A program made the translations under genes and the position numbers. The notes under the pieces were generated by a model. It made no database searches, was not told where the DNA came from, and saw nothing but the letters and a program-made list of their open reading frames with translations. From Selaginella moellendorffii (Eukaryota; Plantae; Lycopodiophyta), in contig NW_003314289.1 of the NCBI RefSeq assembly GCF_000143415.4, positions 1,110,787 to 1,174,786 of the forward strand: 64,000 nucleotides of DNA. The letters are read 5' to 3'. This document shows positions 10,954-58,942 of the stretch, in pieces. The first letter of the stretch is position 1, and the number at the start of each line of letters is the position of its first letter.

Positions 10954-10968
10954 CACAATCTGAATCAA
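10954..10968 (-). promoter_or_regulatory. Self-priming PBS of element B
   Basis: 15-nt perfect reverse complement of LTR positions 11061-11075, which lie ~30 nt downstream of TATATATA (11105-11098). Confidence 0.85.
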
Positions 10969-16506: not shown

Positions 16507-16565
16507 CTCCCAACAATCCGCCTCTATCCTTCGCTAGAATTGAGATAAAGGCTCCGATACCAAAT

Positions 16566-17715
16566 TGTAAGCCACAAATTTTTCCTTTCCAATTTGCCAG
16601 CTTACCTCATCTATCCGTCCAACACCACCTTGGCTTTTGCTAAGTTCCCTTGCCAAGGTTCTCGCCTATGGTACCAGCTCCTACTTGGTCTCAGCTACTC
16701 ACTGCACGAGCAACGGAGTGTTAGCCATCCATCCACAGATTCCCAAATCACTCCCAATCCCCCTCCCTGGGTTAGACTGGACTTAAGGTTCGGCTACACT
16801 CCCCGCAAGCACAAGTAGCCAAGCACACCAAGCTTCCAGGTTCCTAACATCCTTTGGTACCACAAGACTTGATCATGGGACCCTCTAAATCCCAAGTCTT
16901 GAGTGCAACACTTGCTTCGGGACGCCGGGGCGAAACACTGTGGCCTAGCGGCCCGGTATGGGTACCTCTCGCCCCCCACTTCCATCCCGAAGGAAGGCCC
17001 AAGCCCCTAGGAAGGGCGAGGACCAATGAGCCGCATGGTACTTAGGTGGGGCACCACTCCACATGAGCCGGGAGCACCGCAATCGGTTTCCCTTTCGGGA
17101 GTGGGAGCTGCTCTTGAGCACTTCCTTGGATGGCTCCTCCGGCACCAACCAAGTCCATGCTCACTCCCACCTAAGGCCCCTCGGTCCCAGTCCCAACCTC
17201 AAGTCAGTTTGGGAGCCCCACTGGAGAGTCCCTTCTAAACTGGTTCCTGGACCTCACTATCCCTACTATACTTTTGGAACCCCCTGCAGCCCCCCCCCCC
17301 CCTGGGAGACGCACGCTTTGGGCTTTCATCCCTTGACCCGTATTAGTATTTGGATTTAGTCTCTGGCTCGATCTCGGACCCGATTTCGGATCTGACTTCG
17401 GATTCGGTCTCAGACTCGATCTCGGACTCGATCTCAGACCTGATCTCGGACCCGACCTCGGACTCGACCTCGGACTCGGTCTCGGACCCGATTTCGGATC
17501 TCGGACTCCGTCTCGAACTCGGTCTCGAACTCGGACTCGAACTCGGTCCCCGAGTCGGTCTCGGACTCGATTCCGGACTCTATCTCGAACTCGGTCCTAG
17601 AGTCGGTCTTGGACTCGATCTTCGACTTGGTCCCATCCGATGAACTCTTTGTCATTTTGGTCATGCTTTTGGGGTTCCTTTAGCCTACGACACCTCGGCG
17701 AGTTGGTTCCTTACA
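16566..17715 (-). repeat. 5' LTR of element A
   Basis: Direct repeat of 5466-6613, with the PBS adjacent. Confidence 0.97.
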
Positions 17716-31634: not shown

Positions 31635-33733
31635 GTCTAGTGCTATTTCGGCATACCGGTGGCCTAACGCAAGGACATGGGTACTCCACCAGCTAGTATA
31701 GAATGGAACTTGGGCTTAGACCCAAGCCAGACGTAGAACAAAGACAAAGATAGACACATAAGTAAGAGCTAGACTATGCTTCAGGTTGGTCGGCCATGCC
31801 CAACCTACCCACTATCCCTACTATACATTTGGAACCCCCCACAACCCCCCCCCCCCCTAAGGAACAATCTTTACATTCCATAAATATGCTAAATGAGCAA
31901 ATTTGGACACTTTCCATAAATAATATTTGGGACCGGAATAAGACTAACACAAAGGGCATGATAGCAAGGGTGTTTGGCAGACACGGTAAGGTATCATTTA
32001 GCGAATATTGAGGGACCAATCTTAATATAATGAGGGTTCTTGATACTAGCAAGTGCAAACCAATAACACAAGTTTCTCAAACCAGGCCAAGTATGCTTAG
32101 CAAGAAACACATAGGGTTCCTACCTTATGTTTATCCAATTTAAGTCTATGTTCATTGACCAGTTTGTCAACTAGCTCAAGTGGGAATTAATAACGGGTCT
32201 AGCAATACTGACCTCTTACCATCATGGCAGTAAGGAAAGAGTGTCCATAAGGACTGGCTGACAAGTATCTTTCGATACTCGAAGTCACATTCGCGACAGC
32301 AAGAGCAAGCAACAAGGATGCGAGGTGAGGGAGTTCTATATGAAATGGAAAGGATTTCCACACTATGAAATGGGAACCAGAGGAGAACCTAGCAAACGTG
32401 TGGGATATAATGAAGGAATTTTTGCAAAGTAGAACTTTATGTACTTATGCAAAATTCAATTAAAGAATCTATTTTGAGAAATTGAACAATGTCATATGTT
32501 GGGACTTAAAGGCATGCTGAAAGTAAGCTAATTAGCATGGGTTAACTAGGTCGACCAAGCATAGGAAACTACGCTCGACTCCCTGTAGGGATGTCGAATC
32601 CGTAGACATATTCTACGGAGGTTGGGTTCAAGTCCCAACCCCCTAGTAAAGCAAGGCTGGGTTCAGGTCCCAACCCTATATTAGGGCGGGGTGAGAGGAG
32701 GGGTGTAGGGACACCTATACTTTGTTGTCATGGGCTCTTGGCTGGGGAGGCTAACTTAGGCATATCGCTAAGTGGGGGGATGCCCTCGGAGACATGGTCA
32801 ACAAATTGTAAAATTAAAAAGAGCCATTCGATGTGGGCATCAACCTTCTTCTATGGGTGGTGGAGTTGTAAGGAATCAACTCCCCGAGGTGTTGAAGGCT
32901 AAAGGATTCCCGAAAGCATAATCAAAATGATAAAGAGTTCATCAGATGAGACTGAGTTTGAGATCGAGTCCAAAACCAACTTTAAGACCGAGTTTGAAAC
33001 CGAGTCCGAGACTGAGTCTAAGACCGAGTCTCAGATCGAGTTTGAGATCCGATATCGGGTCCGAGATCGAGTCCAAGATCGGGTTTGAGATCGAGTCTGA
33101 GATCAAGTCCAAAACCGAGTCTGAGATCGAGTCCGAGATTGAGTCTGAGACCGAGTCCGAATACTAATATAGGTCGTGGGGTGAAAGCCCAAAGTGTGTG
33201 TTTCCCAGTCTCCTAGGGGGGAGGGGGGGGGGGGGGGACTGTAGGGGGTTCCAAAAGTATAGTAGGGGATAGTGAGGTCTAGAAACCAGTCTTGAAGGAA
33301 CTCTCTAGTAGTGCTTTTAAATTGACTTGAGGTTGAAACTGGGGCTAAGGGGCCTTGGGTGGGAGTGAGCATAAACTTGGGTGGTGCCAAAGGGGCCACC
33401 TAGAGAAGTGCTCAAGGGAAACTCGCACTCTCAAAAAGGTTGGAAGTGAGGGGGTAAAGGTACCTATACCATGCCGTTAGGCCACAATGTTTCCCCCCAG
33501 TGTCCCGAAGCAAGTGTTGCACCCAAGGCTTGGGATTTAGAGGGTCCCATGATCAAGTCTTATTGTACTAAGGGATGTTAGGAACCTGGAGGCTTGGTGT
33601 GCTTGGCTGCTTGTGCTTGCGGGGAGTGTAACCAAACCTTAAGTCCAATCTAACCCGAGGAGGGGGATTGGGAGAGATTTGAGAATCCGTGGATGTGGAT
33701 GGCTAACGCTCTATTGATCATGCAGTGAGTAGC

Positions 33734-35872: not shown

Positions 35873-38800
35873 CTATCCTTGTTCTACACCTGTTTTAGAT
35901 CTAAGCCCAAATTCCACACTATGCTAGCTAATGGAGTATTCATATCCTCATGTTAGGCCACCGGTATGTTAAAATAGAGCTAGACTCTATTTAGCTTCGT
36001 TTTAAATGAAGGAATGGAGCCAAATTCCTAAATATGGAGTTAAGGAGTGAAGGAATTGGAGCACGGAGGAACTTTTGAGCATACAACTTAAAGAGCAAAG
36101 GGATAGGAGTATTGAGCAACTTGAAACAATCCTAGAGCATTTAACATTTAATGTTAGGACTAGCACACAATGGCTCAATGCCCTAAAACTTGGGTTCTAC
36201 TCCCCTATCCTTGGACATGTGGCATGTGGCATATAGAGGGTTTAAGTTCCACTTCGTGGTTATCTTATAGTTAATCACTATGGGATAAAAGGTGAAAACC
36301 ATATATGCTACATTTGGTATCAAAAGATGAGTTTTAGCAAGTACTATCTAATGAGATGATTTTTTGGGTGATTTGTGACCTGTGCACTATGAGAAAGAAG
36401 TGATGATTCACAGAAGAATTCTAGAAACATGGAGCTCATGGGCAACTAATCTCATTACATACGCAGAAATGAAGATAATAATTTGAGTGGGTACACGTTT
36501 GGGTGCTAAGACTTCGCATTCATTCCTTGGGTATGGATTTGATTACTTTTTTGTACCATATTATATGAGCTTTTGCTTAGGCTCATAAGTTGGATTGAGA
36601 TGTTCCATTTACACTTGTGCTTGGGCTTGTGAGTGAGGTATATTAGCAATTCAATATTACACTTTGAGTTGGCAAGATTAATGTTAACATATCAGTGGTT
36701 ACCATGAGTTGAACTATGTACCATAGGTGAAAGTAAACATCCCCTAGGTTTCTAATAATGGCAAATAGGCTGGTCCATAGATGTTTAGCATAGCATTAAT
36801 GAATCCTTTCTATGCATGATTATAAGTGGATCAATCAAAACTGTAGGGATTAATTTATTGGTTCAAGTAGTCATTGCCGTGCTCTCTCATAAACTTTTCT
36901 TGGATTGAATTGAAGTAGTGCTAAGGTTTAATCAAGTTGAGTCCGAAAAGAGAGTTATCAAGGATGAAGGATCAATTATGTAAAAAAAAAATTTCTTAGA
37001 GAGATGATTTGCAACAAAGTGTTAACTCATTGCTCGTGTTTACATCATGCAATCAAGAGTCCCTCTATACAATTCCATTCTTACAGACTTAAACAAACAG
37101 ATCATTAAAAAGTATTAACTTAGGTGCATCTCCATTGTAGTCATGCAATCAAATTTTGTGGAAGGGAAGATAGCTTTGTCCTATCTACAACCCCCAACAA
37201 ACCATAAAACAAGAAGCAGGGTTCAAGATGGATCTTGAATCCCTCAAAACCTTCTCTATCAAACTTGCGAATGGATGGTTTTCCTTCCATAGCACTATCC
37301 CAACTCAAATACCATGAGATAAATTGGGGTCAAGCACACTGCACTAATGGACACAACAGAAAGCCCTAATATGTATGTGGCGAGGTGTGTCTCATAACAT
37401 CTTTAAGCTAGATGACTTAAAGGTATCCCCCTTTTGGAATGCAAAACACATTTATTCTGCTGCCTTTAGCATTGGGCTGTTAAATTAACCCATTCTAATC
37501 TTGCCAAAAACTTGAATTGTGTAAAACCAATATAGGTCAAATTTACCTTACTTTGATGCATGTTGGTTATAATGGTTTTACAAGTGGTGAATCATAAGAT
37601 AGATAGTGGTGAAACACTAAACCATTTTGTTTATGCTTACTATTGAAGACTTGGGTTACAATGCTCAATTTTTTTTTAGGGAACCTTGCTATTGCTCCTT
37701 GAATAGCTTGGTGTTAAATTAATGTTGAGTTTAGTTGGAAAAAGAGTGGAATAAACTTATCCATATTGTGAACAAAATTAGTGATGGTAAGTGTTGTAAA
37801 TCTCTATTGGTGAAGTGTGGTATTTATGTTGCATTTTGTCAAATAGAATTAGCATTTGATACTCATATAAAGTTTTAAAGTAATAATGTAGGCTTGCTCG
37901 TGGTGTTGTTCAATTGATGATCAAGTCATTGTGATTCTTTATATCATATTCATATGATAGTGAACAATGTGTTTATGAAGTTGCTTGGTTAAATGATAAT
38001 TAACCCCAAAGTGGTTGATGGTGAAGCTAGTCTATTTACATGTAGTAGTATTACAGTAACTTTGACTAGATTCACAATAGTTATCCATTATGCTAAACTT
38101 AAATTGGTATCTTGTTTCTTTACTCATAAAGTGTTGGAAACATTCACTTACTATGGCTTGTTGGTAAATCCATTACACTTGGAATAGATTATTGGATGGT
38201 GAAAGTGTGAAGTTAAGGCATTGGTATTGTTAACACTTGTGTTAGTGGAAATAGCATTACTATATTGAGTGATAAGGAATTTTCCTTAGAGCTTGATTAT
38301 CCATGTCATTTTTTTTGTTAATGTTTTAGCTTTATATTGGATCTTAAACGTGGTTGAAGAAGAGTGTTAGTGCAATATAAATATTCAAAAATTTGGTCTT
38401 TGTAATCAAGTCTTATATGTTCATTTTCTAATTTGCAAATATCGATGTTGAATGTTGGAAATATAGGCATGATGTTTGATGCTTAAACATACTATTGGGT
38501 CATAAGAATTTGTGTTGAAGTGAACATATGTGAAGTTATTAATAGGAGGAAGTTAATTGAGTTTTGAAAGTTTGTATTCTTAGATTGAGAGTTATTTTTT
38601 CTCTAGGATGGAAATTTTCCACAAACTTTGTTAGACTTTTTCAATAGCTAATATGTTAATCACTTTGCTCGAAAACCATTCTGTTTTTATAAGTCAATAC
38701 AAACTAGTGAAGGACTTTGATTAGCTTAGACCTTAGTTGGTAATTTGTATGATGCAACTTGAAAGGGATATTAACTTTTGAGTCTAAAGAAATTAAATTG

Positions 38801-39279
38801 GATAGAGTCTAGAGTTGGTGTAAAAAAGTGGCCATTAAAGCTCTATTTCGTTAAAGTGGGAATTGTCATTATCCCACTTGTAAAATAAGGTTTCCAAACC
38901 TTTATATAGTATATAAATATAACAAAATTCAATTGCATTGAGGCACATGCCATTTTATTTTAAACAAGGAAATGTCTACTCAATCACTTCTCCTCCCCCT
39001 GCCACTGCTTCACCTCTCTCTTCTCCTTGTCATCGTCGTCCAATTTCTTTCCATCCTTTTAATATTGGCTCAGTTGCTCCGAGTCTAGGTGGAGCCCAAG
39101 TCCCCATTCAATCTTTACTTTCCCCTTATTAATAAAACAACTTCGCAGACTTCCAATAACATGCTGTAACACTTCTAGTATAATGCAAATCCTCTCAAAG
39201 AATTGTCTTTTAATATTAATACAATGGCATGGAACCCCATGCCATAATAAGTTACATTTTTAAATAAATACATGCCATC

Positions 39280-42200
39280 TCAGACTATTATTTTTTGCCT
39301 CCAACGCCTATACAATAATCTTGGAATTTCATCACTCTCCACACTATCAGGATTTAAACCTAATAGTAATGCCATCTCTTCTCTAATACGTCCACGCTCA
39401 TGTTCAGTGGTCGAAGAACCCATCCGGTTGAGCAGATTATGGAGATGCGGATAGTGCTTGGCTAGACAATATACATGCCATAAATGATGACTGGTGTCTG
39501 TCCGATCAAATGGCTTCTGATATACCGTTCCATCTGCCATTTGGTTGATTTCTGCAGCCACCTCCTGGACTGGCCGGTTCTCTATCACCATCGCTTCAAG
39601 CCGTTTTGCAAGGTCCCCCAGAACATACGATTTCTTCTCCCTAGTTTCCATACTGCAAGAGATGGGGTGCACTGCATATGTGTGCGTGTTCGCTGCAGTT
39701 TTAATCGGCGAGTCATCGATGATGAGGATTTCACTTGACCTAGCAGTCCGGTTCATCACTACAGCCTTTGCCTTGACGAAGATGGGCTTGCTACCCCTCA
39801 CATGGACCATAGTCAAGCAATCCTCCTGCGTTAGGAGAAAGTCAAATGGTAATATTACTCGCGTCTGATCGTGCATCATCTGTAGCAACGTTAATGCATT
39901 GTGGCGCATCATGGATGTCCAAACTCCCAATTGCAAATTGAACCCGGCCCTCTGTTTTAAGTGTTGCATGGTCATTATTAGATCCCGCAGTTTCTCCCGT
40001 GTGATTAATGTGAATCTGTCTCTTTTGACCAACTTGCGACCGCAGGCTTTGGAGGGTGCAGTGACATTCGAGGACGAGCCACGCTCATGGGAGAAAAGGA
40101 CACCGTTCAGATCAAAAACGATACAGTACTTTCGCCGTGACTCTGAAATGAAATGCGTCAGCATAAAAAATGGTACAAGTCAATTTTACCATCTACAATA
40201 TTAGCGAATGGTGCTCCCGATGGTCGTTTAGAGGGTTTTGGTCGAGGAAACGTGAAGGGCGGAAATACTCTCCTCTGCAATGTGGGGTCAATCGCATCCG
40301 ATGGCGTGTGGGCACATGCCATTTCAGCTGTAGACTCTGGTACAACTGGCTCAACAGTGGCATGGGGTGGTTCCGATGGCGTTTGATCACACGCCATTTC
40401 AGCTGGTGCCTCCGTTGGCAAAGTGGACATGACCGAATAGGCAGCAGGGGCGGTGTAGGGAGGTTCCAACGGCGCGTAGTCAGACGATTGGGCACACGTT
40501 GGAAATGAGGATACGACCGGCTCGGTGGCTAGGGCGGCCTCATGCGGGTCCAATGGCGCCTGGTCACCGTCAGTTGGATACGTGGACAAGATTGACTCAG
40601 TGGTATGGGCAGCATCAAGTGGAGCGTGGTCAACTTGCTTGGCGTTGATATGGATAGTAGCCTCCACCAGCTCTGATGACTCTTGCAGGCAAGTAGAGTC
40701 CACTGGCGGATCCATATGCATGTCCAAATATCTCCCTTCGATTGAGATGGTATCCTCCCGTGCTACTAAAAACAAACTCATTAGCACATTGAATCGACTA
40801 TACTGTATTTACCATCAACTGCTATTGAGGAACTAGGACCGATATCACTTGGGCGCACTGCTGATTCTGAAGGATTGGACATACGTTTCGACCCTTACTT
40901 GGCACTATCCTTCCTCGACACTAAAGGCTAGAGTTTGTATCTTAATTCAACTGAATAATCTCTACTTACCATTTCTTCTGCGACCTACATGGACAATGTT
41001 AGAAATGGTAAAAGGTTAGGAATGGATGTACTATTATTTACCTGATGGTTTGTCTTGTATGACCTTCCTCCGCTGCTCTTTGGCCACCTTAGGCTGGCCA
41101 TCGTCGTCATCATCGTCATCGTCGTTATTGTGATCGTCACCATTGTGAGGACCATCCAAGTCCTCTTCGTCCTCCTCTTCTTCATCCTCCTCTTCTTCGT
41201 CCTCTTCTTCTTTGTCCTCCTCTTCGTCCTTCTGCTCTTCCTGCTCATTATCTTTCTCTGGCTCCTCATCCCCCTCTTGCATTTCTTCCATAGGCTACTC
41301 AGGCTGGATGGCTTGTTTTTCCAGGACCATCTTGGGAAAATCATCTGGCCGAGTCTCCATCTCAAAATACAAGACATCCATAGCCTGTTTTAGTGCGTGA
41401 CCTAGGACCGTATCCTCACCCGACTGTCTTAACATGGTTTCTGCACGTTCTTGCACCCTTCGAAGACGACGAGATGAGAAAAACGTGGCCCTGACTTGAA
41501 AAGCATCCCTCATCCATTGTACCTCTCCATTGAGATTGGGGAAGGGGAGTCCGCCATAGGAATCTGAGTCAGAAGGTGGTGACTGGCTCCTTTCACTCAG
41601 CCCTTGATCTGCAATGAATGGCATGAGCACACACGCCATAACCGCGAGGCATTACCTATCATCTTTTCGTTGCCCTTCTTCCTTTTCGAATCAAACGCCT
41701 CTGATCCCGACGACTGTCCAACATGCTTTCGCTTTTTATGACCACTGTCAGTTTGAGCTTGGCTGGTGCTTGCCTGTTTTGCCTTTGAAGAAGTGTCTCC
41801 TGCAAGGAATGGCATGAGACCACACGCCATTGCAAATATAATTTGTACCTCCTTTTTTCCTATTGCTTGTCTGTTTGTCCTTCTTCGACGCGCCACCAGT
41901 GCGCTTTTCAGTCCTCGTGTTTGAATATTCACAACGATCTATAATCAAAATGGTGTGAGGCCTCACGTGACCTTACCTTGTGCAGGTTGTGACCTCGGCC
42001 TAACATCAGTAGCTGTTAACGCCGTTTCAGCATCTGGGGGTGGCCACGCTCTTGCATACAGAGCTTGTGAGATAACATTTAAACTTAAAGTGCGTACTCA
42101 CCAGGTTCGTAGAGAAGATACTGTTTTTCTTTGGCAACTGTAATTATATGCTCCATTGAAGTCACCTCTTCAATGGAGTTTGTCACCGCAACACACGGGA

Positions 42201-44885
42201 CACCCTTGAGTAGTGCGGCTCGAAAGAATAGTCCGCCGCAGTTGTACTCGACAACGCATTTGCCCTTGGAGTCACCCGCTATTGCGTTGAAGACCCAGCT
42301 GAGCATTTCCCATGCTGCACCTAGAGCTTTCTTTGGATTCGAAAGCTCCATAGCCGTCTTCAGTTCCTCAGGCACGGGTAAATTGACCTCCCTCAGATCA
42401 ATTCGATCGGCTTTGTTGAACGAAGCTGGGAAGTCACTCTAGTCCCACTCTGCTGCAGGACCAATAACAAGGGCGAGTGTGAAGATGCGGATATTCGTCG
42501 GTATTTTCTTCTTAGCCATTATCCCATGGATCTCCCGCATCTCCTTGCCTTTCAACCGAGCCTTCACCTCGTTCAAGGCCTTCCAGAACTTGTGATAGGA
42601 TTCGGAGTCGTAGATCATATAGTGGACTGAAGATTCCACCTCCGCAAGTCCCACCATTAAGTCAATGATGGAGCTGACTTCGTCTGCATGAGTGATCTCC
42701 TCGTTTGTGAAGTCCATCACACAAAAGATGTTCTTGACCTGCTCATCTCCGCGGGAAACGATGCTCCTCCACCTTTGATCCTCATCCGAATTCACGTATA
42801 CCCGGTAAGGTTCTCGATAGGCCTCTGCTGCGGGGTCGAGCTGTTTCTGAAGCCGGCGGTCGACATCCCTCTTAATGAAATTTGGATACTGATCCAACTT
42901 CTCAGCTTTACTTTTCGTGGCATCCCGCAGCAGATCGATGAACTTGGGGGCCCCCTTCACGTACTCGTCGATGTCTTCATTTGACAAGTCCAGCTCTTCC
43001 ATCATCTCTTGCGTGGTGTCGATGCTCACCCTCGCCACGGCCACTTGCTCGAAGATCCAATCCTTCAATAGCGCACGAGCTCTCAGAGTCGTGCACAAGT
43101 CCTCGTATGTCACAATATGGCCGGGAGTCATTTTGGTCTTGTTGAAGACTACCTCACCACGTAGAAGAGCATTAGCCACTGTCAGAAGGTCGTCGTCGTC
43201 TAGAGACCGCGAGAAACGCAAGGCGTTGAGCTTCAAATCATTGGGCTTCCGGCCGTCCTCCACACCCATTGAGTTTAGCAACTCCCCGTCATGGTACCTC
43301 CTCAGCACATCTACCCATTTGTCAAAAACAACTTTTGTTGCGAGTAGAATGTTATGGATGCTGAGTGTGTCATTGACCCCCAGTGTTTTCGAGAGAAGAC
43401 TCAAGAATTCCTGCAATGGAAATGGCGTGAGGCCACATGCTATGCCACATGCAACGAGGCTTACCTACCAGGCGCTAGTTGCTAGTGCACGTCCTTGTCC
43501 TGGTTTTTGTGGCTTCTTCAGTTGAACCCAGAGCTTCCGTGTTCGTGCCAATGTCTCGTGCAGACCCGATTTGTAGCACGTTTCTTGCTTGACATTCTGC
43601 GCGTGGGAGATGTATATGATAGATCGGAGGGGCGAGTTGCCTTTTATCAGGCGGACAACTCTTGTCTTGAAGACTTTCTTCACCTCCTCGCCCACCATAA
43701 TACCCACAACTATCTGTTGCATCGCCAAGCTAGAATGCTGCCCGGAGACGGCATAGAACCGGATGTTCTGATCGTCCAAAACCTTCCTATTGATCAAGTC
43801 TGAAAACCTCGTCTCGCCCTTCATTGTTCGGTAGTAGGGGATCACGTCTGCGATGTCGGGTGTTACTGGACTTGCCAGCATCTTCTGCTTCAGTTTCTCC
43901 ACCCACTCATCAGATACTAGCCTGTGGTTGTATTTGCTTTGGATCTCGATACGGCTCACGTCGATTGTATATACTTTGTTGGAATAGTAACAAGTACTAT
44001 TATCTGCGACGATTTTTGTTGCCTCTTCTTGCTCTTTCTGCTCTTTGCGGCTCTTCTTTTTGGTGGGTGTAGTGTTCGAACCCGAGGCAATGGCATCACC
44101 GAGTAGCTTCTTTTTTGGAGCAGCAGAGTCGGACGTCGGCTTGAGCTTGACCACCCTTTTCTGCTTCGGGGTAGTATCCAGATCGACCCCTTTCCCCTTC
44201 GCTTCGCAAACTGGAGGCACTCTCAACGGCTCAATGTTGGAATATAGTTTTTGAACATCGCCGTAGGTGAGGTCCGTGGATTCCATGTGATCTTCATAGA
44301 CCCGCAGCGTCTTTGAAATTGTGGGCCTCCTGGACAACCTCTCCCTAGCTCCCTCTAGGAATTCCTCATAGCCGCTGCCCCCCTCCGGGAAGCCGCTAGA
44401 ATGTGCAAGGTGGATCTTGAAGGCGGACGCTGTCTCTACCACAAGTGCCAGTCCATATTCTTGCATGGAACTGCATGGAGTGTCTGTCACTTGGATGAGG
44501 ATCCCCATGCATTCTTTTCTCCCACCATCTGTGTTGTACAGCATCAGATCCTTGCCTTCCATCCCGAAAGTCCAACTGGTGAGCTCCTCCCCCTTCTCTG
44601 CATCCACATTGACAGTGGCTGGAAGAAGAACGCAATTCCTCGCCTGTTCAGAAATGCACAACAATTAGAGCTGACAGATGAAAAGCTAGCAGCTAGAAAT
44701 AACGTGAGGCCACACGCCATTCACCACTGCATCAGATGTCTTGAGGCTGCATCCTAAGATGGCGTGAGGCTACACGCCATCTGTAACCGGACTGCACTCG
44801 AGAGCCCAATCGGTGCATGCCAATGTTGCTACTGAATGGCATGTGGCCTCATGCCATTTTCTACTTGGTCTAAAAGACTTACCAT
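39280..44885 (-). pseudogene. Multi-exon transposon cargo gene: ParB/Srx-like + methyltransferase-like + acidic/basic linker + FCP1/SCP-like HAD domain; 3 in-frame TAG stops
   Basis: GT-AG introns join the ORFs in frame (e.g. 44882-44644, 43464-43411, 40189-40143). Motifs: RLVSDEWVEKLKQKM..FYAVSGQHSSLA; KGKCVVEYNCGGLFFRAALLKGVPCVAV; IVFDLNGVL..GVWTS..TQEDC..KPIFVK..IIDDSPIK. Small exons at ~40780-41040 are not fully resolved. Confidence 0.72.
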
Positions 44886-46482
44886 TTGAAGCCGAATGGA
44901 GGCCGTGACAATCGAGGCCGGACTCGCTGGCGAATGTGCACTGTGTGTGTAGCGGATCGTAGCAGCAAGGCTACTCTGCCACTTACAGTTGGAGAGTGGT
45001 GCTGAAATCTCCCGGGACGCCAAGTGGGCTGCGTGTGGGTGGCGGAGTGGGCGGCGGAGTTGGCGGCGAAGTTACAAACTGGGTGTGTCTTGAAGTGGAC
45101 GCCGATGCACACGAGCGCGATGCGAGCGCGAGTATGATGCAAGCGCGAGTGGACGCCGATGCACACGAGAAACCTGTAGAGAAGTGAGCGTGATCGCGAG
45201 TGGGAGCGCGATGCGAGCGGGAGCGCGAGTGTGATGCGAGCGCGAGCGCGAGTGTGCGAGCGCGAGTACAAAGCAAAATGCAAAACCTAACCTCACACGC
45301 GCGAAATGTCACAACGGTTGGTAATCCCACCACGTCATCATTCCTCGGACTTGGGCGCCACCATTAATTTCTGGATTGCCGCGCGCATGCAAGCACGCAA
45401 AATCCAAAAGAAATCCGCAACGTCATCATTCCTCAGACTGCATGCACGCGAAATCCAAAAGAAAGATCATGATTGGGATATCATTTAATACCCTCGCTAT
45501 ATTTATACCATGCATGATTGGATATTCCAAAGCATCTTGTATTTCCAAAAATGGCAGATGTTCAGCTAAATAAAGAAATTCTATCTGTTTCTATTTTTCT
45601 CTCAAATCAATATTATAGCGTGTGGGCTCATGCAATTTTGAACCAAAGAAACCCAAAAAACGTTAGACCCAAAATATTTTGAAAAAACCCAAAAAACCCT
45701 AATCATTTTAAACCCAAAAATCCAGGCGTCCTGTGGCGTTATTCCTTGAATGGCGTGTGGGCGCATGCCATTTTCAGGGCCAAATGCTGAATGGAGAAAA
45801 ATTCCCTTTCAGTGCAAATGCTGCAAGAGGCAGATGCCGAGCACAAAGGACTGTAACTACCTCACATGACACAGATAAACTTTTCTTTATTTGGCAAAGA
45901 TAAACTTTATAGCGTGTGGGCTCATGCAATTTTGAACCCAAAAAATGCACCAAAAAATTCTCGGCGTCATCTGGCGTTATCTCTTGAATGGCGTGGGGCC
46001 GCATGCCATTTTCAGGGGCACATAGGAGTATATTCCTAGGATATTCTGACACGTGCGAGATTTTTTTGAGTTTTCTGGAGATCCAACCGTTAGATCGCAA
46101 CTAGATTTTACAGAATGGTATACAATGTCTTTCTTGATGACCCTGCAAAGAAGCATCTCGATCGGACACTACATGAGACCACACGAGCCTTACAATGTTT
46201 CAGGGGCATTTGCCATAGATCCGACCGTTATTTTGCTCCAAGATTTTATAGTTTAGTGTGCATTGACCTTTCCATCGAAACTGCAAAGGGACATCACAAT
46301 CAGATGCGGGATCACAAGAAACTAACTTCACTAACTCTGGTTTCACCAATATCTACGTAAGGAGTTATGAAATGAAAGGACCCTCTCTATTGAAATGTGT
46401 TTATGGTCCTAGGGGCATTGTGACATATCAAAGGATTTTGCATCAAGTTCTGTATTTGCATGTTTATCAAGCTACTGAATTG

Positions 46483-46509
46483 CTAAACCCTAAACCCTAA
46501 ACCCTAAAC
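46483..46509. repeat. Interstitial plant telomeric repeat, (CCCTAAA)~4
   Basis: ctaaaccctaaaccctaaaccctaaac. Confidence 0.9.
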
Positions 46510-47839
46510 ATGTGGCAAATGCTGCGTGAAGAAAGATGCCCTTTCTGGGCAAATGCTGTAAGAGGCAGATGCCGAGCAGATGTATCTCAGGCTAGCGAAG
46601 GGGACAAACGAAAGCTAGCTATAAACATGACGGGATGCAAATAGATTACTAGGCTGGTCCTACGAAAATCAAAAACCATAATTGAAAACATTGAAAATGC
46701 AAAAAGAAAGGTTTATAATATTTTTGAATTTTAAGCAACCAAAGGAATGTAAGTAGGGCATGTGTTTGTAAGTTTAAAAATGCCTCAACCACTTAAATTC
46801 CCAAGTAAATAAAGCTGTTTCTATTTTTGGTACAGATAAACTTTATAGCGTGTGGGCTCATGCAATTTTGAACCCAAAAATGCACCAAAAAATGCTCGAC
46901 TAGCATTATTCTTTGAATGGCGTGTGGCCTTATGTCGAGCATTATTCTTTGAATGGCGTGTGGCCTTATATTGCCATAAATGGACGTACACACATAGCAT
47001 AATTATTCCTTTACACGGCGAATAATCTTGGCGCGGATCGCTGACATGGCATGGAAAAGTTCAAATCACTGACATGGCACAGCTGGATCGAGGCAAGGAC
47101 ATGATGTGACAAAGTTCAACCTCCGACAGCAAAGTCTAGAAGCTACTCAGTTTGAAATTTGTCAGAGGAGTCATAAGATCTGGTTTGTCAGAGGATTTGA
47201 TGTGACGTTCAAGCGTGTGTTATTTTTGAATTCTCGAACTCATTCCTAGATCTATCATTTTTGTGCGCCGTGTTCTTGGTTCCGCTGAGCGCAGTGAGCG
47301 CTGCTTGTGTAAGCGGCGTTGTGGGCTGTGGTTTATGCGTCTACGAGCGGTTGCGGCATTGCGAGCGCCATTGCGAGCGGCAGTTTATGCGAGTGGCAGT
47401 TTGTGCGAGCGGCGCTACGAGCAGTTGCGGTGTTGCGAGCAGCGCTACGAGTAGTTGCGGTGTTGCGAGCGGCACTGTCTTTGGTGTGGCTACCGCTTCC
47501 TCTTGATATTCGGCACTTGTGCTTCCTGGTATGTTCACCATAGAATGGCTTAGGACCACATTTAGAAATGGCATGAGGCCACATGCCATCTTGGGCCCTT
47601 GCAATTTCATGGCTAGCGTATTGTCATGTATGTTTTTACTTGCCTGCAGCTGTGTGTATATCAAGATGGCATGAGGCCTCATGCCAATTTTGTGAATGCG
47701 AAATTTCACGTGGGTGTCAATAGCATGTTTGAATAATGGCATGTGGCCTCATGCTATTGAGGTTGTTTGGTATGTTATGATTTAGGCCATTCTCCAATCA
47801 TTTTTTGTATGGTCTTAACTTCTTTTCTGCACTTTCAGA

Positions 47840-50800
47840 ATGGCCTTCAGGGTTGGGGAAAAGGTTTACATTTTGAATGGTGGGAAGAGAGTTGCAAAAG
47901 GGACCCTTGTGTCTATGGATCGGAACTTTGTTATACACTGTCAAAGGCTTGGGGAAGGCAATGCTGCTGTATCAGTAGAGACTGTCTTCGATGGGAATGT
48001 GGTCGCTATTGAACGAGGAGAGATGGTCGTCGGGGTAAATGTTGTTGTTGCCTTGAAAAATCTTCAGAAGAAAGCAGATGTTGGGGATAGCGCAAGTGTG
48101 ACGCATGTTCCCTCCGTGGATCTTAAGAACCGTGCTACATGGATTCAGGCAAAGGTGTTTCTAAACAACCCCGAGGGGGAGGTGGTAGCTGAGGGCTTAG
48201 CCACAGTTGTCGATCCAAGAGATGCAGTTGCTAATCAAGAATTGGGCTGGGATGATATTGGAGTTGCGATTTTAGAGGTTGTTGACACAGAAGAAAACAG
48301 TCTGACTATTGGAAGCATTGTGCGGTGGAAATTGAGGCACTTAGTGTTTGAGAATGTGAAGGATTCACAATCAAACACCACTACAACTGATGACAGAACA
48401 TCTCTTCATGGGAAAAGAAAGTACACTTTCCTAAAGCGCAGCCAAAGGGATCTGAGCAACGAACCGAAAAGGCAGAAAATGGCGATGGAGGTTCGAATGG
48501 TCTCGACAGTTGCTTGTTGCAAGAGGAGGTGCTGTCAACATGCTGATTGGGATGCTATTGAAGAGGAGAGAGCAAGATATAAGACATTGTCCTGGAAGGT
48601 AGCTCGCAATTTTGTGTATGAGGCATTACGGTCATCTATTGATGCTTCAGAACATCAGGTGGGGGGCATGGTCTTCTAGAGGGGTTTGGTCTGCATGAAG
48701 GCATGGAGAATCATTTATGGAGTCCCTCGAACCACATTCTACAGAATCAAAACTGAGTTCGAGGAACAAAGGGTTCAACAGGCAGTCCATGAGAACAACG
48801 GTACGCACAAAACCAGGGGTCATGTTGTATATGGAGAGGCAATCTTCAAGAGGTTTGTCGAGACATGTAGCGAGCAGCAACCACATAAAACCCGCCTCTT
48901 GGAAGATGGAACACGAGACACCCAACGAGTTCTCCCTTCCATGTATACCAAGGGGGCCATATTGGAAGATGTGAATCGGGAACTCCAGAGTAATGGCTAC
49001 AGGAAGCTGAGCCAATCTAGATTTAGTAGATTGTGGAGCAACAGGTTCAGGGATGTGAGTATAGGAAAGTACTCCAGCTTTTCAAAGTGTGACGAGTGCA
49101 CTGCTATCAAAATGGCTTTGTCGAAGAATTCTTGCAGCGCTCAAGAGCGAGAGACGTTGGTTAGAAAGCGGCTCGACCACAACATCGAGCAGAGAAGCTG
49201 CAGGACTGCATATTATCATAACAGGATTCTCTCCATGGAGAGACCTGACTCTTACCTCTGCATCATCCACGACAAAATGGACCAGAAAAAGACGTGCTTA
49301 CCTCGACTCAATCCTGCCCCCAAGGCAATCTCTTCATCCATGCAGCTGCCTGTGTCTCTGTTTGGCATAATCGCTCATGGGCATGGTGCCCAGAACTATG
49401 GGAACTTCTTTGTACCTCTATGGGGTGGCGGGGGTGCAAACATGATGATTGCGTCCCTAGCAAAACACTTAAGGTCTCTGCAAAGTGCGCAGACTGAGCT
49501 GAACGGCCAACCCTTGCATAAGGCCCTTGTCGATCGAACCCCATACAGGGTTCAGCTGGAGGAGGAGCAAAGGCTTGCAGTATCGCGTGGGGCCCCATGC
49601 CATCCCAGTGAATATGTTGGCCGTCAGATTGTAGGGTTATCACGTGAGGCCTCATGCCATTCCGACGAGGCTGGTCGCCCGGTGAATGCACAGCCTCATC
49701 CAAACGAAGCAGAATCTCAAGGAAGTTCTTGCGGCCGATGTGGCCTTCCACCCCATCTTCTGCTCCAAACAGACAATGCTGGCAGTGAGAACAAAAACAT
49801 GTACGTCTTCGCGTACTTGGCGATGCTTGTTGCCAAAGGCATATTTGAAACGGTTACACTTGGCTTTCTCATGGTTGGGCACACTCATGAAGACGTCGAT
49901 GCCATGTTCAGTCACCTGGCAGAGTCCCTCCGGCGATCCAATGTCCTCACCCTCCCACAACTCTACGATGAATTCCAAAATTGCATCAAAGGCATTGTTG
50001 AAGCTGCACTTCTGACAGAGGTTCCAGACTTTAAGGGGTTTGTAAGAGGCTACATCAGGGACGGATCCGAAACGCTGATTGGCCACTCCAAGCCTCTTCA
50101 GTTTCATTTCAACATGTGTGACGGTGCTCCAGTGATGAGGTACAAGATGAGAGAATGGGACACAGTGTGGCTGCCAGTGGACGGCATTGAACTCTTCAAG
50201 AGAGATCCCATAACTGGGGAACCTATGATTCCTCAGGGTTCCCCACGGCCGATGCACCCGGATGGACTCAAAGACCAGGAAAGTATAGTGGCCGGGATTA
50301 GACAGCATATTGCCTTCTGGAAGAGGGGGTTGGTGTTTGGTGGAGAATCCTATTTTCAGAGGTGCAAGCCTTTGCTCGAATACTGGGAGAAGATTATATC
50401 TACTATCCAAAATGGGCCGGTTGTATATGAAGAATTGGAAGAGTCCTTTTGGCCAAAACCTAGAGCACCAGATAGTAGCGGAACAATGTCCTCTGGAAAT
50501 GCAGTGACAGATAACAATGTTGAGGATCACTATTGTGGGCCGAGGAACAAGAAGCCGGATTCAACATTCAATCCAGTACAGGTTTGCAAAGGAATGGTCG
50601 TGCTTGTCAGACCCAGTAATAAAAAACAAATGATATGGGTGGGGCGCTGCATCACTGATGCAGAGGAGGACGCGGAAACTAACTCCTTCAATGTAACTGT
50701 GGAGTGGTTCAAGCCAAGTTCCGGATATACGAACGATTGCCTAGAAAAGAGATGGGTGCTGAATCCAAGGGATCCCAGCATGAGCATATCGGTGGATAAT

Positions 50801-50981
50801 GTTGTGCATGGTTGGATGCGGAAGCAGAGTGCCACCATCACCTTGCCAGACCATGCAAGAGATGCAGCAAGAGCATTCATAACCCGGGTTCAAGGTGAGA
50901 TTCATGAATATTCCTTTACTAAGTTTCTAATGTATTTTATTTCAAGGTGAACAATCCGAATCTGAATCAGAGGAGGCGTGA
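47840..50981 (+). pseudogene. Sola1-like DDD transposase (~1030 aa) with one in-frame TAG (48677-48679) and a terminal intron at 50895-50946
   Basis: CCKRRCC, VCMKAWRIIYGV, KCDEC, IIHDKMDQ and LQTDNAGSENKN...LGFLMVGHTHEDVDAMFS. The 279-aa and 754-aa ORFs are in the same frame. Confidence 0.8.
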
Positions 50982-53900
50982 TGGCATGTGGCCTTACGCT
51001 ATTCCTAGGTGAGATGATACAAATAACAAGTATAAATTCTTAGTTGTTCTAGCAAATCTTACTTAAAGTTCAAGGTGAACAAGCCGAATATGAATTCATC
51101 GGATTGTTATAACAAATTGCGAGGTGATGGCATGAGGCGATACGCCATTTGAGAGTGGTAACCATTCCTATATGAGGTGAGTGAAGTATTTATTAGAAAT
51201 ACCTCATTCAATTGTGCACTTCTAAGTCTTGGTCCACTTAGTACTGTTTGCATGTTTTTATTTTAATTCTTTCTCTAAAATGTTATTTAGCATGTGGCTT
51301 CATGCCATTGCTCTCCACAATCATGCATTGAATTTCTATCCTTGCATAATACTTCTCCATATATATAGCATGTGCGCACATGTGATATGGTTCATTAGGC
51401 CTGATATAGTGTGTGAGGTAAAACAAAGATGATGTGACATATGCATTTACCAATCACACGTGCATAAATCTAATAATATGGCGTGTGGCCCATATTAATG
51501 GCACATAAACCCATATTGTGGGCTTACGTGCTTTATGTACCATCATTCCCTTGCAGCGAGTGTGTTGGTTTCCTTTTATAACACAACGAACTCCATATTT
51601 TAGGGTGAAGAGCGTTCTCATGGCAAGCACAAAATCTGTAAGTGAGGCAGAAAAGGAGACGGAGAAGGAGATAGGTGAAGATGTAGAATATATAAGTCTT
51701 CCAAACTCCCCGTACTATACTCCAGGTGATCATTTTTCTGAACAAACGGCAACATTAACAACTATCGAGAACGCCCCAGTAACGTCAGAGATAACAATCC
51801 AAAGCAAAACAACTGACCCGGAGAAGGATGATAGTACCGCTGAGAGTACCAAAAAGGAGGTGTCCACTAGCGCTTAGGCTTATAATGGCGTGTGCCCTCA
51901 TGCCATTTACTTGATCACCAAATACCTTTTTCCCTTTGCACAAGTATATCTTAATACCGGTCTGAGAAATAGAATGGCATGTGCCCTCAGGCCTTTTACT
52001 AAATCACCTTTGAAAGAAATGCAAGCCTCTATGTCGTAAAAAAAAGGTACTAGAGAAATTCCTTAATAATATGAATGTTATTTAGTTTCATGAAAATACA
52101 CTAAGGGTCAAATGAGTTAAATGACTTCTCCAGACTAGCAATGCCTCTTGCTACACCTTCACAATTAGATTCGTTAGAAAAAGATAACATTGAATAATAT
52201 CTAAATGTTCTCACCATTAAGTTATATATCTGGCTAATAGGAATGACGTTCATCTTGGAAAGCTCACCACACGCTCAATGAACAAACAAATAGTGTGTGC
52301 GCGCATGCCATCGTTCTTCTTTAGCTTCAGATTCGGCTTGTTCACCTTGACAATGAGATTTATTATACAACCAGATGGACTCAGTCTGGACATAAAGTCA
52401 CCGCACTAGTCACCATGCCCCAGATATGTCTAGCCCCTGGACAAAAAACATATAATTTCACGTCATTTTCAAATACTTGAAAATTTGTACCTAGTCCCAT
52501 TTTACTGAATAAATCCCACTTTAACGAAATAGAGCATATTACCCTTTTCTAGAAAGATGACATTTATGCCTTTCTTCTATAATATTATGCTAGGTAGCAG
52601 TTTACACCTTGCATTTTGTTAAACTCTATAAGAGTAGTGAGCTCTTACTAATACTAACTTAGTCTTGATGGCCTTGCACTTTAGCTGAGGATGGTGATGT
52701 TTAGCCTAGTTGTTTGAAGTTGAGGTGTTAATACTTATATTATAGCTTTGTTTATGAGGAGGTTATGTACCAGAGTCTATCTCATAGTCTTTACTATAGT
52801 TTCAACTAAATGTTGATCATGCATAATTAGCATCTTCAAGGCATGCTCAGAGTTGTTAGCTAAATGCATTAGTGAGTTTATTGCAGTTGAGTTGGATTCA
52901 AGTGGTCATTTAGTTCATGCTTATCTATGAACCTTTATCTTATATCTAGGGTATTACATTCATATTGGACAAGTATATGACTCGATGGCATAAGTTTAGT
53001 GTTTGAGTTTTATGAAGGGCAAGTTAAAGAATGATTATTGGTTGTTTTGCAACTAGTAATTACTTGTAGATTTTGTCGAGGAACGTTAACACTTGCTTCA
53101 CTTGATGATGATTTAGTGGTGATAGGTTTACTTTACTGGATGGTGTTACGGAGGATCGTGTCATTAAACTTGCATAATTTTTCCATGTTAGCATATCGAT
53201 TCTACCTTTGTCGATATCATTTAGTTATGTTTAGTCTATGGTGTTAGATTTCATTGAGTTGTGGACATGGTGAATCACTCCTTGATGATGTGTTATTTAT
53301 AACTAAATATTGTTGAAGGATTGATTTTAGATACTGACTAAGGTATCTTCAACTTTTTGTAGCTTGATTGTTAGAGAGCTTTGAGTGATGATTCACTCTT
53401 GTTTTCTTTTAGCTTTATTCTAGTGTTGATGGTATTAAAGTGATTTTTTGTCATTGATATTATTGATGTGGAGATTCAAGTGAAATAAGATGTCTCTCTG
53501 TAAGATTGATATTAAGTTTCATTAGTCTTGATGCAAATAATATTAATACTTAGGCTATAGCTTTGTGTTATTAGCATTTGTGCAATTGCTAGTTAGCAAC
53601 TATATTGGCAATCAAACAAATTGAGTAGTAGTTAAGTTAATTGTATCTTAGAAAGTTGTTTAATAGAGGTTGAGTTTTAAGCTTTTCCTTGAAAAATGAT
53701 TCAATTATGGATTATACTAACTTTAAGAGAGGAAGAGTTAGTGATCGATAATGAAGATGTTAATTCCTTGTTGGATTTAAGTTAGGGATATATCAATCAT
53801 TGATGATTCTTTTCATGTTTGTTACAAGTGAGTTACGTTTGGTTGTAAATGAATTCATAAAGGATCGTTTGATGATCACTTGTTAAGCATATCTTCGTTG

Positions 53901-58620: not shown

Positions 58621-58942
58621 GCTCTTGAATTCGTGTAGGAGTTTTGCGGATTGAGGATAAAGGATTGCCGGCGGCGTGCTCGACAGCTACTTACAAATTC
58701 GCAACTTTAAAGTTTATTGTTCCATAGGATTGGTGTGGCGATCTACGGCTGTGGTAGTTTATCTATACGCCACGTGGCGGTTCCTTATTGGCATTATTTT
58801 GAGGAATCAAACGGATATGCTTCGCCATGGCGGAAGAATAGGTCGGTCTGGAGGAGACGCTGGTCATCCAACGCAATGCGCCCGTCTGGATTGAGGATCT
58901 ACCGGTAAGGAAGGATATCACAGCTCCCTCTTCGCGCCGACA

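What the first reader, a model, noticed from the sequence alone, without database searches (positions are those of the whole stretch)
39280..44885. Hidden multi-exon cargo gene fusing ParB-like, DNA-methyltransferase-like and FCP1-like phosphatase domains
Seen: about ten ORF fragments on the minus strand splice into one frame (ATG|GCG across 44882-44644; G|AG across 40189-40143 fuses the HAD domain). A ParB-type motif (R.V....V..LK..M / F.AVSGQHS..A) lies at ~43700-43990. A segment at ~42170-42340 resembles the SAM-binding end of beta-class N6/N4 methyltransferases but is degenerate (VVEYNCGG in place of VLDPFxGSG), and I found no DPPY/SPPY motif. The HAD motif I reads DLNGV rather than DxDxT/V. 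Inference: a prokaryote-like ParB-MTase module, possibly catalytically dead, joined to a CTD-phosphatase-like domain that could act on chromatin or Pol II.
Basis: partly seen in the sequence, partly recalled or inferred. Interest (0 to 1): 0.85.

Follow-up and report, generated by a model that had tools for sequence, protein, structure and literature searches.

The report
Plant transposon's ParB pseudo-enzyme accessory gene
This is a broken copy of the second gene of a many-copied plant jumping gene; the gene is predicted to encode a bacterial-style palindrome-binding part joined to a methylase-shaped part and a phosphatase-like part that both lack their usual active-site motifs, and it likely binds about 29 palindromes scattered along its own element to help keep it active, a variant of a design already reported from seaweeds.

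Summary
The gene is real, and it is not a host gene. It is the head-to-head second gene of a 13.7-kb Sola-like DNA transposon (38838-52537; 25-bp inverted ends, 4-bp target duplication, DUF7869 transposase). Eleven GT-AG exons give 1617 codons. Its three stops are private to this copy; other copies read through them. Predicted structures support a ParB/Noc-like domain plus DNA-binding region and a beta-class amino-methyltransferase fold. Pfam confirms a NIF phosphatase domain. The degenerate motifs (no DPPY, no FxGxG, GQHS for GxxR, DLNG for DxDxT) are family traits, shared with lycophyte, fern or liverwort relatives, not decay. Best reading (about 50%): a non-catalytic, self-targeting accessory protein that loads on these palindromes and protects the element from silencing. 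A ParB-methyltransferase gene on a Sola transposon is already published (Ectocarpus), as are ParB genes beside inverted repeats (red-algal Plavaka). The pseudo-enzyme form with a fused phosphatase was not found in my searches. Splicing, the phosphatase fusion, DNA binding and any action on Pol II are untested. Verdict: new variant of a known kind.

The parts
38838..52537 (.). Sola-like cut-and-paste DNA transposon, 13,700 bp
   Evidence: Inverted ends; contigs of runs X4 and X6 start at 38838, an X4 contig ends at 52537, and 2 contigs of X1 join 38833 to 52538
38834..38837 (+). Left target-site duplication ATTA
   Evidence: Sequence read against the empty-site joint
52538..52541 (+). Right target-site duplication ATTA
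38840..38864 (+). Left terminal inverted repeat, 25 nt, 96% complementary to the right one
   Evidence: pair I4
52511..52535 (-). Right terminal inverted repeat
   Evidence: pair I4
39280..44885 (-). Accessory gene, predicted 11 exons: 44885-44883, 44643-43465, 43410-42102, 42033-41977, 41938-41849, 41799-41656, 41608-41042, 40984-40970, 40866-40813, 40762-40190, 40142-39280; 1617 aa
   Evidence: Splice model; no RNA evidence
43570..44001 (-). ParB/sulfiredoxin-fold domain with GQHS in place of GxxR
   Evidence: AlphaFold model; fold searches; alignment
43005..43569 (-). Helical region that superposes loosely on the DNA-binding domain of ParB/Noc/KorB; spans intron 2
   Evidence: 187 residues aligned to Caulobacter ParB 6t1f (Z 8.8, rmsd 5.1), 203 to pNOB8-like ParB 5k5a (Z 8.8, rmsd 4.9)
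42103..42828 (-). Beta-class amino-methyltransferase fold lacking DPPY and FxGxG
   Evidence: Model (pLDDT 58); top 11 VIA rows are DNA methyltransferases; homologue in the Atlas
41095..41285 (-). Acidic Asp/Glu tract inside a long low-complexity linker
39636..40142 (-). NIF/HAD phosphatase-like domain: motif I DLNGV, then GVWTS and IIDDSP
   Evidence: Pfam PF03031 E 2.3e-6, 27.8 bits against a cut-off of 21.8; positions
43465..43467 (-). Stop private to this copy (Gln codon in other copies)
   Evidence: 99.6% of X1 depth, and X6, X5, X9
42439..42441 (-). Stop private to this copy (Trp codon in other copies)
   Evidence: 99.7% of X1 depth, and X6, X5, X9
41295..41297 (-). Stop private to this copy (Gln codon in other copies)
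   Evidence: 99.8% of X1 depth, and X19, X6, X4
47840..50950 (+). Transposase reading frame (DUF7869, candidate DDD triad), one internal TAG at 48677-48679
   Evidence: Pfam PF25273 E 6.1e-42; translation
38932..52311 (.). 29 dispersed copies of a 22-bp palindrome, consensus ATGGCRTGNGGCCNCAYGCCAT; 25 non-coding, 4 in coding sequence
   Evidence: 24 matches at up to 3 mismatches, all inside the element, 0 expected from shuffles; 29 of 30 matches at up to 5 mismatches lie inside

Best explanation
This is a stop-broken copy of the second gene of a 13.7-kb Sola-like plant DNA transposon, and its product is likely a non-catalytic accessory protein that binds the element's own palindromes and likely shields the element from silencing. 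Shown: the element, its multiple near-identical copies with these stops absent, the palindromes confined to it, and the NIF domain. Predicted from models: a ParB/Noc-like domain with a following DNA-binding region, and a beta-class methyltransferase fold. Inferred steps: (1) the ParB-like part recognises the 22-bp palindrome as ParB recognises parS; (2) the site accepts CA or CG at one step, which would let binding survive host CG methylation, since 5-methyl-C mimics T on the opposite strand; (3) the methylase-shaped part, lacking its catalytic motif, would act as a DNA-binding or dimerising scaffold instead of writing a mark; (4) the acidic tract and the phosphatase-like domain would recruit or oppose host chromatin or transcription factors, keeping the transposase gene expressed, as VANC proteins do for VANDAL elements.
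For: Element. Intact codons in other copies. Of 36 displayed places where this copy differs from the X1 majority, 33 are C-to-T type, and 23 of those 33 are in CG or CHG context, which make up 32% of the element's cytosines: the family lives under 5mC silencing. ParB fold: the top 6 of 48,161 chains are PadC, KorB, pNOB8 ParB, SerK, sulfiredoxin and SbnI (Z 9.5-7.0); the top 14 rows are ParB/Noc/KorB/PadC (Z 11.0-8.4), several spanning the DNA-binding domain; 4 of 5 viral matches at E<=0.001 are named ParB/Spo0J/partitioning. Methylase fold: the top 11 rows are DNA methyltransferases, covering the whole domain (Z 8.9-7.2, 146-183 residues); the Selaginella homologue aligns to PF01555 clusters in 8 of 10 Atlas rows. 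Dead motifs are inherited: no majority difference falls in motif IV or motif I; 10 of 11 rows of A6 keep the Asp and none has PP after it; the fern protein MCO5596946 has DLNG too. That protein also joins ParB-like, helical, methylase N-half and NIF parts in one annotated gene. RefSeq XP_024528744 reads WQ-EF across the position of intron 2. Palindromes; among 58 half-sites the variable step reads CA 33, CG 22, TG 2, which neutral CG decay would not give. Precedent: PMC12477816 and bioRxiv 2025.02.11.637652 (passages); PMC5735166 (abstract and section 8).
Against: No binding, expression or methylation data. No profile-level ParB hit in any of 21 family members (Pfam, NCBIfam, PHROGs), and PF01555 is hit by only 1 of 21, below its cut-off (E 0.021). 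Foldseek gave no PDB match at E<=0.001 for either model; for the methylase model its top 3 rows were unrelated enzymes and CcrM ranked 4th. The methylase model is low-confidence (pLDDT 58) and its Z-scores stand little above the first unrelated row (7.1). Only 1 of the 8 Atlas rows met the bar for naming the family. The DNA-binding-region superposition is loose (rmsd about 5 or more). The Arg of ParB's GxxR motif is missing in the window and in all 17 stored homologues that hold the motif, so clamp-like CTP chemistry is doubtful. The palindromes could be read by the transposase instead. This copy decayed by methylation-type changes despite carrying the sites. The half-sites are not independent, and the search pattern favours C at that position slightly.
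Confidence: 0.5

Rival explanations
1. Transposition cofactor: the ParB-like protein would load at the palindromes and bridge or compact the 13.7-kb element so that the transposase can pair distant ends, or would tether the excised piece; no anti-silencing role.
For: ParB-like genes recur on unusually large elements: 21.5-kb Sola1-1_Ec32 and 17-19-kb Plavaka. The ParB-like region of a liverwort homologue is nearest by features (0.96) to fungal DUF3723, a conserved gene of giant Starships (PMC9156397, passages). Palindromes run from end to end of the element. DNA bridging by ParB is recalled knowledge.
Against: It does not explain the methylase fold, acidic tract or phosphatase domain. The GxxR Arg is lost. 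The DUF3723 link is a language-model resemblance: PF12520 was not hit by any of 21 members.
Confidence: 0.2
2. Active, non-canonical methyltransferase: the conserved Asp and an altered SAM pocket would suffice to write 6mA or 4mC on the palindromes (CATG or CG), alone or as a heterodimer with an active relative, marking the element as active chromatin.
For: The motif IV Asp is kept in 10 of 11 rows, and an acidic residue plus GG at motif I is kept (LDFFSGG in a Riccia protein). The Ectocarpus authors propose self-modification. DAM-carrying retrotransposons show raised 6mA (bioRxiv 10.64898/2026.05.21.726589, abstract). Unchecked notes on other genomes infer active versions.
Against: No [DNS]PP[YFW] motif in the window protein or in any of 31 stored homologous proteins, of which about half cover this domain. 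The known plant 4mC enzymes keep TSPPY (bioRxiv 2021.02.12.428880, passages). The residues after the Asp vary freely among homologues.
Confidence: 0.12
3. Two genes, not one: the NIF domain would be a separate gene started at the ATG at 40164, and the three-way fusion an artefact of the splice model. This concerns architecture and is compatible with the other mechanisms.
For: The ATG at 40164 is in frame and opens 294 codons (frame; sequence). The linker exons are low-complexity and without homologues. An unchecked note describes a liverwort element with a separate phosphatase gene (e1-10632387). Riccia and Selaginella models P0014, P0033 and P0002 end without NIF.
Against: Exon 10 is open right up to a GT donor 47 nt from the AG acceptor, in the right phase, leaving no promoter space. 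Other copies remove the stop inside the linker. A fern gene model fuses the parts, though it too is a prediction and lacks the methylase C-half.
Confidence: 0.2
4. Neutral passenger: a captured gene without function for the element, carried along as in Pack-MULEs.
For: This copy is broken by three stops, and all three catalytic motifs deviate from canon.
Against: The stops are private; about 4.8 kb of frame stays open in the family; protein conservation reaches lycophytes, ferns and liverworts; the same layout is in a brown-algal Sola element.
Confidence: 0.05

Closest known systems
Sola1-1_Ec32 of Ectocarpus (PMC12477816; passages and rows of supplementary files 1, 2, 3, 5 seen; its FASTA supplements and figures could not be read)
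   Same: Large Sola element; second gene on the strand opposite to the transposase; ParB-like plus N4C/N6A methyltransferase domains; 4-bp TSD biased to end in A (ATTA here).
   Different: 21.5 kb with 282-bp TIRs and AACCG-CGGTT termini, against 13.7 kb with 25-bp TIRs; 1104 aa against 1617 aa; the word 'phosphatase' and the stem 'palindrom' do not occur in its main text; its methylase is presented as predicted active. Sequence homology to it could not be tested.
Plavaka accessory genes PAG2/PAG3 of red algae (bioRxiv 10.1101/2025.02.11.637652; passages; supplements closed)
   Same: ParB-like accessory protein with adjacent inverted repeats, proposed to bind and modify its own element; an N6A-methylase gene in the same cassette.
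   Different: EnSpm-type transposase; ParB is fused to a 2OG oxygenase and the methylase to SET, in separate genes; repeats are in tandem arrays, not dispersed through introns.
VANC anti-silencing proteins of Arabidopsis VANDAL elements (PMC5735166; abstract and section 8)
   Same: Element-encoded accessory protein with a short motif concentrated in the element's non-coding DNA. A functional analogy.
   Different: Mutator-type host; a 9-bp non-palindromic motif; no ParB, methylase or phosphatase relation was tested or is implied.
Bacterial and phage ParB/Noc/KorB and ParB-fused PF01555 methyltransferases (PMC4738411 passages)
   Same: Fold and domain order: ParB N-domain, helical DNA-binding region, beta-class methylase; palindromic target-like sites.
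   Different: GQHS/T replaces GxxR; DPPY and FxGxG are absent; intron-containing; eukaryotic acidic tract and NIF domain added.
FCP1/SCP/NIF CTD phosphatases (PF03031)
   Same: Pfam match above cut-off; first Asp of motif I and the later HAD motifs present.
   Different: Second Asp is Asn (DLNG), also in the fern homologue; no BRCT hit; substrate unknown. From memory, DLNG marks a wider plant and fungal subgroup of NIF proteins; not checked.
Eukaryotic 4mC methyltransferases: Marchantia DN4MT1 (bioRxiv 2021.02.12.428880, passages) and bdelloid N4CMT (PDB 8s9n row; papers seen as search listing only)
   Same: Prokaryote-derived beta-class fold in a eukaryote.
   Different: DN4MT1 is an active host enzyme with TSPPY; 'ParB' does not occur in that preprint.

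Membership tests
Sola DNA transposons | Terminal inverted repeats (11-1124 bp per PMC10741241) | tested here: met
   25-nt TIR, 96%; ends match contig ends
Sola DNA transposons | 4-bp target-site duplication | tested here: met
   ATTA on both sides; empty-site joint 38833-52538 with 4 shared letters, in 2 contigs of one run
Sola DNA transposons | DDD transposase | tested here: inconclusive
   DUF7869 hit and candidate Asp motifs HDKMD, QTDN, GHTHEDVD; linking these to Sola is recalled, the triad was not verified on a structure
Sola DNA transposons | Sequence kinship to Repbase Sola1/2/3 transposases (subgroup) | not testable with these tools
   No Repbase; original paper not held
ParB/Noc CTP clamps | ParB/Srx N-terminal fold | tested here: met
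   (Z up to 11.0; 7bm8 Z 10.5, rmsd 2.3, 98 aligned)
ParB/Noc CTP clamps | Helix-turn-helix DNA-binding domain after it | tested here: inconclusive
   Helical region superposes at rmsd about 5 (6t1f, 8qa9, 5k5a); no HTH profile hit for the window protein
ParB/Noc CTP clamps | GxxR nucleotide-binding motif (recalled) | tested here: not met
   GQHS in the window; GQHS 14, GQHT 2, GLHS 1 of 17 homologues with the motif
ParB/Noc CTP clamps | Clustered palindromic loading sites on the same replicon | tested here: met
   Palindromes present and confined to the element; binding itself not shown
ParB/Noc CTP clamps | CTP binding, hydrolysis and spreading | not testable with these tools
   Needs biochemistry
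Beta-class N6A/N4C DNA methyltransferases (PF01555) | Beta-class fold, catalytic half before SAM-binding half | tested here: met
   Top 11 VIA rows (M.MboIIA Z 8.9, rmsd 4.2, 168 aligned; CcrM 8.6; M.BceJIV 8.5); low-confidence model; Foldseek weak; homologue support
Beta-class N6A/N4C DNA methyltransferases (PF01555) | Catalytic motif IV [DNS]PP[YFW] | tested here: not met
   Asp only; absent in the window and all stored homologues; not due to decay of this copy
Beta-class N6A/N4C DNA methyltransferases (PF01555) | SAM-binding motif I FxGxG (recalled) | tested here: not met
   EYNCGG here; EYGCGG, DINTGG, DIFSGG, DFFSGG in homologues
FCP1/SCP/NIF phosphatases | NIF domain profile above cut-off | tested here: met
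   PF03031 27.8 bits against 21.8
FCP1/SCP/NIF phosphatases | DxDxT/V motif I | tested here: not met
   DLNGV; DLNG also in P0017 and P0021
FCP1/SCP/NIF phosphatases | Activity on phosphorylated Pol II CTD | not testable with these tools
   Needs an assay
VANC-like anti-silencing proteins | Induces loss of methylation on its own element in trans | not testable with these tools
   No methylome or expression data
DUF3723 (Starship accessory) relatives | Profile match to PF12520 | tested here: inconclusive
   Feature score 0.96 for part of P0033; no Pfam hit in 21 members at E<=1

The most novel reading that the evidence does not exclude
Land-plant Sola elements run a parS/ParB-like system inside the nucleus: a transposon-encoded ParB loads at methylation-proof palindromes built into its own introns and delivers a pseudo-methylase and a CTD-phosphatase-like effector to rewire chromatin or Pol II on the element, and the same ParB-derived domain is the unexplained DUF3723 gene of fungal Starships, making ParB-type loaders a shared device of giant eukaryotic transposons.
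Probability: 0.2. Interest if true: 0.85.

Novelty: new variant of a known kind. Interest (0 to 1): 0.5.

Why it matters
[quoted passage not shown] The algal ParB-methylase accessory genes are proposed but untested cases. This element offers a compact testable one in a land plant: a many-copied family whose other copies lack the stops, a defined 22-bp candidate site, and a protein whose enzyme-like parts look repurposed as non-catalytic effectors. If it works as proposed, it is a second, independently evolved anti-silencing system built from bacterial chromosome-segregation parts, and a possible sequence-specific chromatin tool. If DUF3723 is the same fold, it would assign a mechanism to a core Starship gene of unknown function.

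Tried and rejected
Word-index protein searches found nothing for the 633-aa query or the 21-row alignment, and one protein for the ParB alignment among longer proteins. Of 16 phmmer hits I dropped 1, P0003, a repeat-rich bacterial-type protein matching 56 low-complexity residues. Sequence and profile searches of the PDB gave no relevant match. Phage tblastn with P0030 and P0033 gave nothing useful. Scans for related loci confirmed none: metagenomes (0 of 83 stretches), viral contigs (0 of 1 and 0 of 11). A metagenome scan for the palindrome gave 3 loci, each with a single site, 63-66% GC and no homology to the element; treated as chance. So I could not test whether homologues in other species sit beside a transposase or palindromes. 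No whole genome is held, so copies were not counted; read depth is not a copy number. No RNA holder was listed; the guessed-RNA run X19 has contigs running unspliced through introns 1 and 10, so it may be DNA and says nothing on expression. A two-copy complex prediction of the ParB domain gave no answer (score 0.00, alignment not used). No Rfam match. The weak SLT hit on the methylase C-half (E 0.004, below cut-off) was rejected in favour of the fold result. Alignment A5 was misaligned and replaced by A6/A7. Whether other copies lack the transposase stop at 48677 was not among the 40 of 192 rows displayed. The N-terminal 215 residues and the NIF domain were not folded. Rejected readings: a host gene (it lies between TIRs and a TSD), and degeneracy caused by decay of this copy.

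Full report
1. The observation. The minus strand of 39280-44885 holds a chain of open frames. Taking GT-AG junctions in phase gives 11 exons and a 1617-codon frame with three internal TAG stops; the other five frames hold 42-98 stops. Introns are 38-239 nt. The splice model has no RNA support: no listed run is on record as RNA. Indirect support: a RefSeq Selaginella moellendorffii protein reads WQ-EF across the position of intron 2, and several unspliced gene calls of relatives break off at the same point.

2. The setting. The gene is one half of a transposon. A 25-nt inverted repeat pair lies at 38840-38864 and 52511-52535. Contigs of public runs start at 38838 and end at 52537, and two contigs of run X1 join 38833 to 52538, an empty site that defines a 4-bp duplication, ATTA. 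Head to head with the gene, 47840-50950 encodes a DUF7869 protein (E 6e-42) with candidate catalytic aspartates. TIRs, a 4-bp TSD and a DDD enzyme are the features given for Sola (PMC10741241, passage); the subgroup could not be tested. The family is many-copied and young by inference: 63,822 contigs of run X1 were laid on it, 39,102 of them at least 99% alike, and long contigs of X4 and X6 differ from this copy at under 1% of places. The host is a plant (TTTAGGG-type repeat, chromoviruses); short introns and the best named hit fit a lycophyte, as an unchecked note on this genome also says. I did not establish the species.

3. This copy is broken, the family is not at these places. All three stops are read as Gln, Trp and Gln codons in over 99% of X1 depth and in every other run laid. 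Of 36 displayed places where the X1 majority differs, 33 are C-to-T type and 23 of those lie in CG or CHG context (these 36 come from the 40 of 192 rows shown and the 13 rows). None of the 13 differences in 42040-43560 falls in the methylase motifs, so their odd form is inherited.

4. The protein family. A full phmmer scan gave 16 hits, 15 kept. Named members come from S. moellendorffii, Riccia sorocarpa, Calypogeia fissa and Adiantum nelumboides. No profile library names the ParB part in any of 21 members. Structure does: the 633-residue model (pLDDT 67) finds ParB-superfamily chains as the top 6 of 48,161 and the top 14, several alignments running on through the helical region onto the DNA-binding domain at rmsd about 5; Foldseek's best PDB row is Noc at E 1.8e-3 and its best viral rows are ParB/Spo0J proteins. 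The Arg of GxxR is replaced in all 17 homologues that hold the motif. The methylase region folded alone (pLDDT 58) finds DNA methyltransferases as its top 11 rows, over the whole domain; Foldseek is weak here, with CcrM fourth at E 0.01 behind three unrelated rows. The Selaginella homologue's Atlas model aligns to PF01555 clusters in 8 of 10 rows, one meeting the naming bar; 3 of the 10 clusters carry ParB_N. The motif IV Asp is kept in 10 of 11 aligned rows but never followed by PP. The last exon is a NIF domain above Pfam's cut-off with DLNG; the fern model MCO5596946 has the same motif and joins it to the ParB-like part, though it lacks the methylase C-half and three other models lack NIF.

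5. A 22-bp palindrome occurs 24 times at up to 3 mismatches, all inside the element, none expected by chance; at up to 5 mismatches 29 of 30 matches are inside, 25 of the 29 in non-coding DNA. It fills most of introns 2, 4, 5 and 6, ending 10-12 nt before the acceptor. Among 58 half-sites the variable step is CA 33 times, CG 22 and TG 2. Neutral decay of CG should give CA and TG alike, so the site looks constrained, with the caveats that copies are not independent and the pattern slightly favours C.

6. Mechanism. Inferred: the ParB-like part binds the palindromes; CA/CG tolerance would make binding survive CG methylation; the methylase fold serves as a scaffold (beta-class enzymes work as dimers with split roles, recalled); the acidic tract and NIF domain engage host chromatin or transcription factors to keep the element expressed. 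I give this 0.5. Rivals: a transposition cofactor that pairs distant ends (0.2), an active non-canonical methylase (0.12), a neutral passenger (0.05). Separately, there is about a 0.2 chance that the NIF exon is its own gene from the ATG at 40164.

7. Comparison with what is known. Ectocarpus Sola1-1_Ec32 carries an opposite-strand gene for a ParB-like plus N4C/N6A methylase protein, proposed to bind and modify its own element, with a 4-bp TSD biased to end in A (PMC12477816, passages and supplement rows; FASTA supplements unreadable). Red-algal Plavaka elements carry a ParB-like gene beside inverted repeats (passages). VANC is the functional model. I reached the Ectocarpus paper through unchecked notes of this scan, which report similar elements in other plant genomes; these are leads, not support. 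The element works like those systems; by the motif tests it is not a member of the CTP-clamp ParBs, the active amino-methyltransferases or the DxDxT phosphatases as defined. A land-plant version with dead motifs and a NIF domain did not appear in paper searches, and 'phosphatase' is absent from the two algal papers' main texts; none of these searches targeted NIF directly, the library lacks most subscription journals, and the 2011 review cited there as reference 50 was not read.

8. A lead. The ParB-like region of a Riccia homologue is nearest by language-model features (0.96) to fungal DUF3723 clusters. DUF3723 is a conserved Starship gene of unknown function, and 'ParB' does not occur in that paper (PMC9156397, passages). 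No alignment supports the link.

9. Verdict. Observation confirmed; interpretation partly supported; new variant of a known kind; interest 0.5.

Noticed in passing
P0033 residues 290-500 (homologue of window 43570-44001): Nearest Atlas clusters by features are fungal DUF3723 proteins (0.96, 0.95), a conserved Starship gene of unknown function; suggests DUF3723 may be ParB-like. No Pfam support.
   Followed up: partly
window 43411-43464, 41939-41976, 41800-41848, 41609-41655: Introns 2, 4, 5 and 6 consist largely of the palindrome, at 10-12 nt from the 3' splice site; introns 2, 5 and 6 resemble each other. Intron 4 is only 38 nt.
   Followed up: partly
window 49470-49750: An apparent in-frame insert of about 90 codons inside the transposase core holds two palindromes (49582, 49639); it may hide an intron.
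   Followed up: no
window 47840-48330 and 50570-50850: The transposase has two similar beta-rich N-terminal repeats (weak Transposase_23 hit, E 0.012) and a beta-rich C-terminal part without a Pfam hit.
   Followed up: partly
window 46483-46509: Telomere-type repeat (CTAAACC x 3.9) inside the element, between the two divergent genes.
   Followed up: no
window 42272, 42006, 40496: In-frame length variants in other runs: 15 nt just before methylase motif I and 12 nt in exon 4 (X6), 9 nt in exon 10 (X6, X19).
   Followed up: no
window 51509-51877: A 122-codon open frame on the + strand near the right end, no Pfam hit; a later transposase exon or a third gene.
   Followed up: no
window 50942-51003 and 52289-52350: A 62-nt internal inverted pair, 76% complementary, in the 3' part of the element.
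   Followed up: no
window 5400-23500: Nested and inverted Gypsy-type LTR retrotransposon copies with RT, RNase H, integrase and chromodomain hits.
   Followed up: no
window 23846-25830 and 29843-31700: Two near-identical repeats about 6 kb apart with 12-bp and 35-bp tandem arrays, probably LTRs.
   Followed up: no
window 58895-60072: NmrA / NAD(P)-binding fragments on the + strand, probably an ordinary host gene.
   Followed up: no
window 38600-38837 and 52538-52800: The flanks are themselves covered by many contigs and joined in an empty site, so the element likely landed in another repeat.
   Followed up: partly
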